Source: Escherichia coli (GTDB taxonomy: Bacteria; Pseudomonadota; Gammaproteobacteria; Enterobacterales; Enterobacteriaceae). Taken from it: DNA of 64,000 bases. Below, piece by piece: positions 6,001-9,000 of this stretch. The stretch is taken from the NCBI RefSeq assembly GCF_048403405.1, contig NZ_CP183129.1. The stretch is one strand, 5' to 3'. A program made the position numbers. Positions within the stretch are counted from its first letter, which is position 1. Every line of letters begins with the position of its first letter.

Positions 6001-9000
6001 CGCGATATTGCGCGAATTTCGGATGGTCAGATGCGTCCATCATATTGTCGATGAACTGTTGCATCGGCGGTTGCTTAATACCTTCGAGGTTGTAACCGAC
6101 GCTCATATTAAAGATGAACGATTTACCGGAATCAGAAGGCTGGAACATCGCTTCGAGAAGGTGCAGGGCAAACCAGGCTTTGAGGTATTCATCCCAGGCT
6201 TTAAGCAGGGTAAATTCGGTGGACCATTCGGTGTTAAAGCACTCGTCTTCGGCATCGATACAGGGCTTTTCCAGCTCCAGGCGGTCAAGAATTTGGACGG
6301 TTTTTAGTTCGATGAAGCGTCCGCCAGTCAGCCAGGAAGTGACAATATTTTGCGCGAGCTGCGTGTGCGGGCCAGCGGCGGGGCCGACGGGAGTGGCACA
6401 GGTTTCACCGAAGACGCTAACAGTTTTACCTTTTACGGGTGAGTAAAACTGTTGCTCGGGAATACCAAAGATTGAGCGTTGTTGTTGGTATTCATCAAAT
6501 ATGCGCGTCAAAAGTTCCTCAAACGGAATGGGACGCATAATATCCCCCATAACCCTCTCCTTAGCTTATACAGATATCATTGAGTGACCGGTGTTGAGAA
6601 ATCCGGTGGTTTAGGGGGATAGAGCAACAATCGCACCACTCTTGCCAGGTTTGGCGGGAAATATAAAAAAATGTGAGGCGGCTCGAAACTTAGGGGCTTT
6701 TTGTGAAAGAACTCACAGGTGCCAAATGAGAATTAAAATCACTCCTGAAAATTATTATTGCCAGCCCATTTATCACTTTTTCTCTTTTCTCAAAATCAGT
6801 GATTCCTTATCATTATGATAAAGAGAACTGGAAGGGTTAAATATTTGAACGCAATCGTTTAACTACGTTTTCTAAATTTCAGCATACCTTTTTTTCGCTG
6901 TAATAAAGTCGTCCGGAGTATCAATATCTAAAATTATTTCTGCATTTTCTATTTCGACGGAATAATGATCTCCCATAAGGAGTGCCTGACGCATATTGGT
7001 GATATTGGGACGCTGGATTGCCTGCATCAGGCATGGCTTTGACACTAAAATCGGATGGCCGGGAATGCCATTATGGAGTGGCAGTATTGCGCCATCATTT
7101 CGTAACGACCAGATTTTTCTAAAAATATCGATGGTGAGGGTAGGCATGTCACCGTGGGTGAGAAAACAATATTCTGTTTTTACCGCGGGTACTGCGGCCT
7201 TTACTGATGTGAGTAAACCCTGCGCATAATCTGGGTTGTGAATAATAGTGATATTGCTCTGGTTCGCATAACGTTCGTGCAGTTCATTACCACGATAGCC
7301 GGTGACTAAAATAATTCGGCTACAAAACTGCAACGCATTTTTGATACTTGTATCAAGAATTGTTCCCTGTTGCCAGGGTAACATCATTTTCCATTGCCCC
7401 ATTCTTGATGATAATCCGGCAGCGGTAATTATACAGTCGATGGCTGACATAGTGGTTCCATTATTTATAGGGGCTAATAACGCCTGATAATTGCGTTACT
7501 TCCTGATGGATTAAGTTGGGGATAATTTATCCCAGAGAGGTCATAAAGACTCGTGAAAAGTATAGTTGACCCATCGGCATTATTCATTGATTTAGGTGCG
7601 CAGAAACGTCCCACTGTGATTTCTGTTGTTGGTGCTGGGGGGAAAACCAGCTTGCTTTTTTGGCTGGCAGAACTGCTCCAGGCTAGCGGCAGGCGTGTGT
7701 TAATCACGACGACGACACATATGTTTATGCCAACGTCTCACTGGCCCGTGGTTTTCTGTCGTGATCCCGCCATGCTTCCTCATGCGTCTTTTATATCCCC
7801 CATTTCATTTTGTTTTCACAGCTGGAAAGCGAACCAGGGAAAAGTGCAGGGATTTACGCCAGAAGCGATTGATGCACTGGTACAACGATCAGAGTGTGAC
7901 GTAATTCTCATTGAGGCAGATGGCTCGCGTGGAATGCCGTTAAAAGCGCCTGATGAGCACGAACCTTGCATACCTAAAAGCAGTTGCTGCGTGATTGCTG
8001 TGATGGGAGGACATATTTTGGGTGCAAAAGTGAGCACAGAAAATGTCCATCGCTGGTCGCAGTTTGCTGATATTACCGGGTTAACACCTGATGCACCCTT
8101 GCAACTGAGCGATCTCGTTGCGCTGGTTCGCCACCCTCAGGGCGCGTTTAAAAACGTACCGCAAGGTTGTCGGCGAGTCTGGTTCATTAACCGTTTTTCT
8201 CAATGTGAGAATGCGATTGCGCAAAGCGAGCTCCTTCAACCGCTGCAACAACACAACGTAGAGGCAATCTGGCTGGGCGATATACAAGAACATCCTGCAA
8301 TCGCGCGCAGATTTGTGAATTAGCGGCCCGGGTATTCCGGGTTACTGAAAGGATATCCATTGAGGTTGGTATGAATATTTTCACAGAGGCTGCAAAACTC
8401 GAAGAGCAAAATTGTCCGTTTGCGATGGCGCAAATTGTTGATAGCCGAGGCTCGACTCCCCGCCATTCTGCACAAATGTTAGTGCGCGCCGATGGCTCTA
8501 TCGTCGGTACAATTGGTGGCGGAATGGTTGAGCGGAAGGTGATTGAAGAGTCGCTTCAGGCATTGCAGGAACGTAAGCCGCGATTATTCCATGGACGTAT
8601 GGCTCGTAACGGTGCGGATGCTGTCGGGTCAGATTGTGGAGGTGCAATGTCAGTATTTATCAGCGTCCATGGTATGCGTCCACGTCTGGTGTTGATTGGC
8701 GCGGGGCATGTCAACCGGGCGATAGCCCAGAGTGCGGCGCTATTAGGATTTGATATTGCCGTTGCTGATATTTATCGCGAAAGCCTCAATCCTGAACTAT
8801 TCCCACCATCAACCACGCTTCTCCATGCTGAGTCGTTTGGTGCGGCAGTGGAAGCACTGGATATTCGCCCTGATAATTTTGTCCTGATTGCCACGAATAA
8901 TCAGGATCGTGAAGCCCTCGACAAACTCATTGAACAGCCCATTGCATGGTTGGGGTTGCTGGCAAGTCGTCGCAAGGTTCAGCTTTTCCTGCGTCAATTG

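What the first reader, a model, noticed from the sequence alone, without database searches (positions are those of the whole stretch)
6702..6717. Perfect CRP-consensus palindrome in the ygfJ-ygfK intergenic region
TGTGAaagaacTCACA matches the CRP core (TGTGA-N6-TCACA) exactly, centred about 90-100 bp upstream of the putative ygfK transcription start. Perfect-consensus CRP sites are uncommon; it suggests catabolite control of this operon, possibly together with a sigma-54 activator, or a different regulator using a similar palindrome.
Basis: seen in the sequence. Interest (0 to 1): 0.4.

Follow-up and report, generated by a model that had tools for sequence, protein, structure and literature searches.

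The report
Known CRP site upstream of ygfK
The palindrome is a real, strongly conserved binding site for the sugar-starvation regulator CRP in front of the E. coli uric-acid-degradation operon ygfK; CRP binding to it in the test tube was published in 2011, so the site is not new, although how it works at this unusual type of promoter has not been tested.

Summary
TGTGAAAGAACTCACA lies at 6702-6717, between mocA (ygfJ) and ygfK, and is the only perfect TGTGA-N6-TCACA in the window (0.08 expected).

It is already published. Shimada et al. 2011 (Genomic SELEX with purified cAMP-CRP) list this exact site and a second site 30 bp downstream. The ygfJ-ygfK spacer was their third most often cloned CRP-bound fragment.

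New here:
- **Position.** The site is centred at -97.5 from the start inferred from the ChIP-seq-mapped sigma-54 promoter of ygfK. It lies between a conserved upstream activator region and the promoter.
- **Conservation.** 29 of 35 Enterobacterales loci keep the half-sites, with 21 different spacers. The second site (-67.5) is always exactly 30 bp away and is conserved as far as Aeromonas, Vibrio and Shewanella.
- **Regulon pattern.** All four sigma-54 promoters of the cluster carry a CRP-like site at -67.5, -68.5 or -77.5.

Most likely it gives cAMP-CRP control of a YgeV/sigma-54 promoter. I infer that CRP acts positively, as a phased DNA bend that takes the place of IHF. Neither the sign nor the mechanism has been tested.

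Verdict: already known as a site. Modest interest.

The parts
6702..6717 (.). CRP site 1: perfect TGTGA-N6-TCACA palindrome, centred at -97.5 from the inferred sigma-54 start
   Evidence: Scores 14.1 bits on the weight matrix. The K-12 variant is listed as a CRP site by Shimada 2011. 29 of 35 Enterobacterales loci keep the core with at most 1 mismatch, using 21 different spacers.
6672..6687 (.). CRP-like site 2 (TTCGAGCCGCCTCACA on the ygfK strand), centred at -67.5, exactly 30 bp from site 1
   Evidence: Scores 9.9 bits. Listed by Shimada 2011. Conserved at -67.5/-68.5, or one helical turn further, across gammaproteobacteria.
6623..6639 (-). Sigma-54 promoter -24/-12 element GTGGTGCGATTGTTGCT of ygfK
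   Evidence: Sigma-54 ChIP-seq site OS31 in Bonocora 2015, located in the window. TGG..GATTGTTGCT is conserved upstream of ygfK in more than 70 loci.
6612..6612 (-). Inferred transcription start, 12 nt downstream of the C of the -12 GC
   Evidence: Inference from the sigma-54 motif position. No mapped start was available.
6807..6821 (.). Perfect 15-bp palindrome TTATCATAATGATAA (TATCA-N3-TGATA), centre -202: candidate YgeV upstream activating sequence
   Evidence: The best conserved block of the whole upstream region in every taxon examined. Related copies lie upstream of ygeW, xdhA and ygfT.
6785..6795 (-). Conserved block TTTTGAGAAAA (centre -178), a further part of the candidate activator region
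   Evidence: Alignment of 34 Enterobacterales loci. Coordinates.
6727..6741 (-). Conserved block TGATTTTAATTCTCA (centre -122), proximal part of the candidate activator region, immediately upstream of CRP site 1
   Evidence: It is retained in the Enterobacterales loci that have lost CRP site 1 (as TTCGCA in Cedecea neteri).
3452..6550 (-). ygfK coding sequence (1032 aa), first gene of the operon downstream of the site
6872..7450 (-). mocA (ygfJ), the upstream gene on the same strand; the site lies downstream of its stop codon

Best explanation
The palindrome is a genuine, high-affinity cAMP-CRP binding site. It is the distal member of a fixed pair of CRP-type sites, centred at -97.5 and -67.5. 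The pair sits between an upstream activator region (about -202 to -122, probably bound by the sigma-54 activator YgeV) and the sigma-54 promoter of the ygfK-ssnA-ygfM-xdhD uric-acid-degradation operon. It places this operon under catabolite control.

Shown: the sequence, its position, its conservation and phasing, in-vitro CRP binding (published) and sigma-54 occupancy (published).

Inferred: cAMP-CRP acts positively. The bend or bends that CRP introduces, on a fixed face of the helix, would fold the DNA so that the upstream-bound activator can reach the sigma-54 polymerase. That is the job IHF does at many sigma-54 promoters. Full expression would then need both the purine/urate signal (via YgeV) and low glucose (via cAMP-CRP).
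For: - **Sequence and score.** Exact core, unique in the window. It scores 14.1 bits, about the same as the lac site.
- **In-vitro binding.** Purified cAMP-CRP selected this spacer (9 clones, third most abundant). The exact K-12 16-mer and site 2 are listed for ygfK-ssnA.
- **Sigma-54 promoter.** ChIP-seq motif 62 nt upstream of ygfK, conserved in more than 70 loci.
- **Phylogenetic footprint.** Mean information is 1.43 bits in the site 1 core against 0.62 in its spacer and 0.66 in the flanks. Site 2 gives 1.76 against 0.51. There are 21 distinct spacers among 29 intact cores.
- **Phasing.** The site 1 to site 2 distance is exactly 30.0 bp wherever both exist. The pair moves relative to the promoter only by 0-2 bp or by about 10-13 bp.
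- **Regulon pattern.** All four sigma-54 promoters of the cluster have a CRP-matrix hit at -67.5, -68.5 or -77.5. The background rate for 7.7 bits or more is 0.0007 per position.
- **No competing elements.** There is no IHF consensus within 250 bp upstream, and no sigma-70-like promoter downstream of the sites on the ygfK strand.
- **Physiology.** Glucose represses urate degradation in wild type, and a constitutive promoter swap at ygeV/ygeW bypasses it. ygfK is urate-induced.
- **Activator.** YgeV has PAS, sigma-54 AAA+ and Fis-type HTH domains.
Against: - No experiment on this promoter shows the sign of the CRP effect.
- Every sigma-54 promoter for which CRP action was described in the paper I could read (dctA, glnAp2, glnHp2, ast, nif, Pu) is down-regulated by cAMP-CRP.
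- The glucose effect on urate degradation could arise elsewhere, for example at ygeV, at transport, or at the ygeW promoter.
- In-vivo CRP occupancy was not confirmed. The only ChIP-exo table I could read lists a mocA transcription unit about 160 bp away, which is ambiguous.
- Thirty bp is not an integral number of helical turns (about 2.9), so the two bends are only roughly in phase.
- Site 2 keeps a conserved non-consensus T at core position 2, which plain CRP binding does not explain.
- Several genera have lost site 1 but keep the promoter, so site 1 is not indispensable.
- The start site is inferred, not mapped.
Confidence: 0.6

Rival explanations
1. The site is a real CRP site, but cAMP-CRP acts negatively. 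From -97.5 and -67.5 it contacts the alpha C-terminal domain of the sigma-54 polymerase, or bends the DNA the wrong way. This keeps the upstream-bound activator from reaching the closed complex, as described for glnAp2 and dctA.
For: All the evidence for CRP binding applies equally. The literature precedent is that CRP-cAMP down-regulates the sigma-54 promoters dctA, glnAp2, glnHp2, ast, nif and Pu through an AR1-alphaCTD contact and altered geometry.
Against: Glucose, which means low cAMP, represses rather than stimulates uric-acid degradation in wild-type E. coli. A catabolic pathway would be expected to be under positive CRP control. Strict conservation of a strong site in the position usually held by IHF fits a required co-factor better than a brake.
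Confidence: 0.2
2. CRP bound at these sites activates an unrecognised sigma-70 promoter for ygfK (a class I or class III arrangement), independently of the sigma-54 promoter.
For: Most characterised CRP sites work on sigma-70 promoters (general knowledge). Tandem CRP sites are typical of class III promoters.
Against: The consensus scan finds no sigma-70-like -35/-10 pair on the ygfK strand downstream of either site. The only minus-strand hit lies upstream, at 6840..6812. The sites keep a fixed distance to the sigma-54 element across genera, and that element is occupied by sigma-54 in vivo.
Confidence: 0.08
3. The palindrome is, mainly or additionally, the target of another protein. One candidate is the sigma-54 activator YgeV, because TGTGA-N6-TCACA also fits the NifA-type enhancer pattern TGT-N10-ACA. 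The other is a further CRP/FNR-family protein.
For: The position at about -100 is typical of enhancer sites (general knowledge). The sequence fits TGT-N10-ACA. Site 2 has a conserved hybrid left half, TTnGA, that is not CRP consensus. No YgeV motif has been published.
Against: Across genera the outermost T is the least conserved core base (C or G in 9 loci) and the inner G4, A5, T12 and C13 the most. That is the CRP profile, not TGT/ACA. Purified CRP alone selects the fragment. A different palindrome, TATCA-N3-TGATA, is shared by all four promoters and is far more widely conserved, which makes it the better YgeV candidate.
Confidence: 0.1
4. The palindrome is a chance match with no function.
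For: 6 of 100 shuffles of the window contain at least one perfect core.
Against: The half-sites are conserved over many genera while the spacer drifts. The distance to site 2 and to the promoter is fixed. The fragment was selected in vitro by CRP.
Confidence: 0.02

Closest known systems
CRP site of the ygfJ-ygfK spacer reported by Genomic SELEX (Shimada et al. 2011, PLoS One 6:e20081)
   Same: It is the same site. Table S3 lists TGTGAGTTCATTCACA (the K-12 allele, one spacer base different from this strain) and TGTGAGGCGGCTCGAA for ygfK-ssnA. Table S2 gives 9 clones for the spacer.
   Different: That paper reports only in-vitro binding and a predicted target. It says nothing about the sigma-54 promoter, the -97.5/-67.5 geometry, the conservation or the sign of regulation.
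CRP action at sigma-54 promoters glnAp2, dctA and Pu (Wang 1998; Tian 2001; Mao 2007; Zhang 2014, as summarised in PMC3900584)
   Same: cAMP-CRP acts on a sigma-54 closed complex from sites upstream of the core promoter, with dependence on geometry and helix face.
   Different: Those effects are inhibitory, and some need no strong CRP site (Pu has none). Here there is a conserved consensus-grade pair of sites, and the physiology (glucose represses the pathway) points to a positive role.
IHF-assisted sigma-54 promoters (for example Pu, nifH, glnHp2)
   Same: A sharply bending protein site sits between the enhancer and the -24/-12 promoter, centred around -60 to -100 (for Pu; otherwise my own knowledge).
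   Different: There is no IHF consensus here. The bending protein would be CRP, so looping would become cAMP-dependent. This is inferred, not shown.
prpBCDE promoter of E. coli and Salmonella (sigma-54, PrpR, positive CRP control; Lee, Newman and Keasling 2005, recalled from my own knowledge; prpR<>prpBCDE appears as a database CRP target in Shimada Table S3)
   Same: A catabolic sigma-54 operon whose expression needs both a specific enhancer-binding protein and cAMP-CRP.
   Different: I could not check the site geometry at prp. Part of the effect there is through CRP control of the activator gene prpR.
CytR/CRP nucleoside-catabolism promoters (deoP2, cdd, udp, tsx)
   Same: Tandem CRP sites in front of nucleoside or purine-related catabolic genes.
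   Different: Those are sigma-70 promoters with CRP sites about 52-53 bp apart and CytR bound between them (my own knowledge). Here the spacing is 30 bp, with only 14 bp between the sites, and the promoter is sigma-54.

Membership tests
cAMP-CRP binding site (CRP regulon) | 16-bp core TGTGA-N6-TCACA, or a close match by weight matrix | tested here: met
   Exact core. It scores 14.1 bits against 14.6 for the lac site, and ranks about 68th of 280 published sites.
cAMP-CRP binding site (CRP regulon) | Binding by purified cAMP-CRP | not testable with these tools
   Published: Genomic SELEX clones and SELEX-chip peak in the ygfJ-ygfK spacer (Shimada 2011).
cAMP-CRP binding site (CRP regulon) | Occupancy in vivo (ChIP) | tested here: inconclusive
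   The only readable ChIP-exo table (PMC5957442 S1) lists a mocA transcription unit at 3013760, about 160 bp from the site. ygfK itself is not listed.
cAMP-CRP binding site (CRP regulon) | crp- or cya-dependent expression of the downstream gene | not testable with these tools
   Indirect only: glucose represses urate degradation.
cAMP-CRP binding site (CRP regulon) | Evolutionary conservation of the half-sites with a free spacer | tested here: met
   Core 1.43 bits against spacer 0.62 bits. 21 spacers among 29 intact cores in 35 Enterobacterales loci.
Class I/II/III CRP-dependent sigma-70 promoter | CRP centred at -41.5, -61.5, -71.5 and so on from a sigma-70 -10/-35 promoter | tested here: not met
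   No sigma-70-like promoter lies downstream of the sites on the ygfK strand. The fixed reference point is the sigma-54 element.
Sigma-54 (enhancer-dependent) promoter | GG-N10-GC -24/-12 element occupied by sigma-54 | tested here: met
   GTGGTGCGATTGTTGCT at 6639..6623. ChIP-seq site OS31. Conserved in more than 70 loci.
Sigma-54 (enhancer-dependent) promoter | Cognate enhancer-binding protein and upstream activating sequences | tested here: inconclusive
   YgeV, encoded 10 kb away, has sigma-54 AAA+ and HTH_8 domains. The conserved TATCA-N3-TGATA and TGAGAA blocks are candidates, but no binding data exist.
Sigma-54 (enhancer-dependent) promoter | IHF site between enhancer and promoter (common, not obligatory) | tested here: not met
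   No WATCAANNNNTTR match with at most 1 mismatch within 250 bp upstream. The window average is 1.9 per kb.
NifA-type enhancer (TGT-N10-ACA) | Invariant outer TGT and ACA, with the inner bases free | tested here: not met
   The sequence fits the pattern. Across genera, however, the outer T is the least conserved core base and the inner G, A, T and C the most.
CytR/CRP tandem-site promoters | Two CRP sites about 52-53 bp apart with a CytR operator between them | tested here: not met
   The centre-to-centre spacing is exactly 30 bp in all loci.

The most novel reading that the evidence does not exclude
cAMP-CRP may be an obligatory positive architectural co-factor of a whole sigma-54 regulon. 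A CRP-type site sits at -67.5, or one helical turn further upstream. At ygfK a consensus-grade second site lies 30 bp upstream of it. Together these would replace IHF as the bend that brings YgeV, bound at TATCA-N3-TGATA enhancers, to the sigma-54 polymerase. This design is shared by the four urate/purine promoters of E. coli (ygfK, ygeW, xdhA, ygfT) and, at ygfK, is conserved from Enterobacterales to Aeromonas, Vibrio and Shewanella. It would be the opposite sign to the CRP effects so far described at sigma-54 promoters. It would also give a molecular explanation for glucose repression of gut bacterial uric-acid degradation.
Probability: 0.4. Interest if true: 0.5.

Novelty: already known. 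Interest (0 to 1): 0.25.

Why it matters
The ygfK-ssnA-ygfM-xdhD operon belongs to the anaerobic uric-acid degradation pathway. Gut bacteria use this pathway to lower host urate, which is relevant to gout, and engineered probiotic strains already try to bypass its glucose repression.

Knowing that a conserved pair of CRP sites sits inside the ygfK sigma-54 promoter region, and not only at ygeV/ygeW, shows where that repression is probably wired. It also suggests that a promoter swap at a single locus may not relieve it for the whole pathway.

Mechanistically, the promoter offers a natural test case for positive CRP control of a sigma-54 promoter. As a sequence feature, however, the site is already in the literature.

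Tried and rejected
1. **A nearby sigma-54 motif of my own reading.** I first took CTGGCAAGAGTGGTGCG (6647..6632) as the sigma-54 element. It is not conserved outside Escherichia, and the ChIP-seq motif is the adjacent GTGGTGCGATTGTTGCT, so I rejected it.

2. **A sigma-70 promoter served by the CRP sites.** I found none on the ygfK strand downstream of them.

3. **IHF.** There is no IHF consensus in this strain. Across loci, IHF-like matches occur in 2 of 36 loci with site 1 and 9 of 39 without it, but most of the latter overlap the TATCA enhancer repeats. The substitution test is therefore inconclusive.

4. **In-vivo CRP ChIP evidence.** One ChIP-exo table mentions only a mocA transcription unit. 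Another paper holds no supplements. A CRP-site prediction paper does not mention the locus.

5. **The Reg-Seq preprint.** It includes ygfK in its gene list but reports no result for it in the text I searched.

6. **A published YgeV motif.** The literature searched gave none.

8. **CytR-type and NifA-type readings.** I rejected both on spacing and on the conservation profile.
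Full report
**Observation.** The 16-mer at 6702..6717 is TGTGAAAGAACTCACA. It is the only exact TGTGA-N6-TCACA in the window, where dinucleotide shuffles give 0.08 per 64 kb. The window is E. coli: it is 100% identical to strain TUM14771, and the spacer is present in 5171 of 5426 complete genomes. The site lies in the 321-bp spacer between the stop of mocA/ygfJ (6872..7450, -) and the start of ygfK (3452..6550, -).

**Already published.** Shimada et al. 2011 (PMC3105977) screened the E. coli genome with purified cAMP-CRP.
- The main text lists ygfK among novel predicted targets.
- Table S2 gives 9 clones for the ygfJ>ygfK spacer, the third most abundant fragment after yecJ/yecR and yibI/mtlA.
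- Table S3 lists TGTGAGTTCATTCACA for ygfK-ssnA. This is the K-12 allele and differs from the window only in one spacer base. It also lists a second site, TGTGAGGCGGCTCGAA.
- The same table gives sites for ygeV<>ygeW (TGTGATCAACCCCACA) and ygfTS<>ygfU.

Of the 280 16-mers in that table, 18 have perfect cores.

A weight matrix built from 276 of those sites (the yge and ygf sites were left out) gives the window site 14.1 bits. The lac site scores 14.6. The window site ranks about 68th of 280, because the bases flanking the core are not consensus. Only 3 of 63985 window positions score as high.

**Promoter context.** Bonocora et al. 2015 (PMC4591121) mapped a sigma-54 ChIP-seq site with motif GTGGTGCGATTGTTGCT, 62 nt upstream of ygfK. 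This motif lies at 6639..6623 on the - strand.

With the C of the -12 GC at -12, transcription would start near 6612. This is an inference, because no mapped start was available. On that basis the palindrome centre is at -97.5 and the second site (6672..6687) is at -67.5.

No sigma-70-like promoter lies downstream of the sites on the ygfK strand. No IHF consensus lies within 250 bp upstream. The cluster encodes YgeV, which has PAS, sigma-54 AAA+ and Fis-type HTH domains. YgeV has been proposed as the activator of the xdhABC, ygeWXY, ygfK and ygfT genes (PRECISE-1K).

**Conservation.** I fetched 80 loci encoding YgfK relatives and anchored each on its sigma-54 element.
- **Promoter.** The sigma-54 element is conserved in Enterobacterales, Aeromonas, Vibrionaceae, Shewanella and some betaproteobacteria.
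- **Site 1.** 29 of 35 Enterobacterales loci keep the CRP core with at most one mismatch, while using 21 different 6-bp spacers. They include Escherichia, Citrobacter, Trabulsiella, Kluyvera, Pluralibacter, Serratia, Edwardsiella, Buttiauxella, Enterobacillus, Yokenella and Morganella. Mean information is 1.43 bits in the core, 0.62 in the spacer and 0.66 in the flanks.
- **CRP-like profile.** The inner bases G4, A5, T12 and C13 are the most conserved, and the outer T is the least.
- **Site 2.** It is even more widely conserved. It scores 8 bits or more in nearly all gammaproteobacterial loci, where the 99.9th percentile of background is 8.4 bits.
- **Geometry.** Wherever both sites exist, their centres are exactly 30.0 bp apart. 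The pair sits at -97.5/-67.5, or up to 2 bp further upstream, or is moved as a unit by about 10-13 bp (Morganella morganii and several Photobacterium).
- **Losses.** Site 1 has been lost in some lineages: K. oxytoca, Cedecea neteri, one Enterobacter, Raoultella terrigena, Erwiniaceae and Aeromonas.

**Upstream region.** Upstream of site 1, the alignment shows three blocks that are not CRP-like:
- the perfect palindrome TTATCATAATGATAA (6807..6821, centre -202), which is the best conserved element in every taxon;
- TTTTGAGAAAA (centre -178);
- TGATTTTAATTCTCA (centre -122).

The length between the second and third blocks differs by about 20 bp between groups of genera.

TATCA-N3-TGATA, with at most one mismatch, occurs in all four sigma-54 promoter regions of the cluster. 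There are 11 hits in the window against 2.9 in shuffles. I take these blocks as the candidate YgeV enhancer. No YgeV motif has been published in the papers I could search.

All four promoters also carry a CRP-matrix hit on the same helical face:

| Promoter | Position | Score (bits) |
|---|---|---|
| ygfK | -67.5 | 9.9 |
| ygfK | -97.5 | 14.1 |
| ygeW | -77.5 | 13.7 |
| xdhA | -67.5 | 7.7 |
| ygfT | -68.5 | 10.1 |

The background rate for 7.7 bits or more is 0.0007 per position. I chose these positions after seeing the data.

**Mechanism.**

Shown:
- a CRP-grade site that purified CRP binds;
- a sigma-54 promoter that sigma-54 occupies;
- a fixed, conserved arrangement of enhancer, then CRP pair, then promoter.

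Inferred: CRP is a positive co-factor whose bends, on a fixed helical face, do the job IHF does elsewhere. Expression would then need both the YgeV signal and cAMP. ygfK is strongly urate-induced.

Support for the positive sign is indirect. Glucose represses urate degradation in wild-type E. coli, and a constitutive promoter inserted at ygeV/ygeW, replacing the native Crp site, bypasses it (PMC12507026).

Against this, the published cases of CRP at sigma-54 promoters (dctA, glnAp2, glnHp2, ast, nif, Pu) are all inhibitory (PMC3900584). Negative action is therefore the main rival.

I consider three other readings unlikely, for the reasons given under the rival explanations:
- a sigma-70 promoter served by the sites;
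- binding by YgeV (the palindrome also fits TGT-N10-ACA) or by another CRP/FNR-family protein;
- chance.

One detail remains unexplained. The left half of site 2 is conserved as TTnGA, a stable departure from the CRP consensus.

**Verdict.** What this analysis adds is its placement at -97.5 of a sigma-54 promoter, its pairing with a deeply conserved second site at a rigid 30-bp distance, and a regulon-wide pattern. Together these suggest an untested positive, architectural role for CRP. Novelty of the finding as given: already known. Interest: 0.25.

Noticed in passing
window 6807..6821; also 16476..16488, 16574..16586, 22315..22327; L001 5039..5051: TATCA-N3-TGATA palindromes lie upstream of all four sigma-54 promoters of the urate/purine cluster (ygfK, ygeW/ygeV, xdhA, ygfT). 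There are 11 hits with at most 1 mismatch in the window against 2.9 in shuffles. The ygfK copy is conserved from Escherichia to Aeromonas, Vibrio, Shewanella and betaproteobacteria. It is a candidate for the unpublished YgeV enhancer motif.
   Followed up: partly
window 6849..6864: ACGCAATCGTTTAACT matches the PurR operator consensus ACGCAAACGTTTGCGT (recalled from my own knowledge) at 12 of 16 positions, with a perfect left half. It lies just downstream of the mocA stop. The block TTAAACGATTGCGTTC is conserved in Escherichia, Citrobacter, Klebsiella indica, Edwardsiella, Buttiauxella, Enterobacillus and some Serratia.
   Followed up: partly
window 16318..16333, 22229..22244; L001 about 5160-5175: Each of the other three sigma-54 promoters of the cluster has a CRP-matrix hit on the same helical face: ygeW at -77.5 (13.7 bits), xdhA at -67.5 (7.7 bits) and ygfT at -68.5 (10.1 bits).
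   Followed up: partly
window 6672..6687 and orthologous positions in L002-L078: The left half of the second CRP-like site is conserved as TTnGA, with T instead of the consensus G at core position 2. It is preceded by a conserved TAA..TT. This is a stable departure from the CRP consensus that plain CRP binding does not explain.
   Followed up: no
window 6632..6647 (- strand): A second sigma-54-like motif, TGGCAAGAGTGGTGCG, overlaps the ChIP-seq one and lies 9 bp upstream of it. It is present only in Escherichia, so it is probably not the functional element.
   Followed up: yes
window 52680..52695 and 36938..36953: Two CRP-matrix hits score higher than the ygfK site. TGTGATAAAAATCACT (16.2 bits) lies in the yqeF/yqeG spacer and is listed by Shimada 2011. 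TTTGATGTGCATCACA (16.3 bits) lies inside type III secretion genes (sctU/sctT) of the ETT2 island, which is present in only 3109 of 5426 E. coli genomes.
   Followed up: partly
window 14632..14653: Inside the dpaL (ygeX) coding sequence there is a perfect TATCAAGATGATA palindrome overlapping a CRP-like half-site, GATGATATTTTTCACA (9.7 bits). This may be an internal regulatory element or chance.
   Followed up: no
L012, L016, L025, L043, Erwiniaceae and Aeromonas loci: Several lineages have lost the distal CRP site while keeping site 2 and the sigma-54 promoter; most also keep enhancer-type blocks. These are natural variants that could be used to test what site 1 contributes.
   Followed up: no
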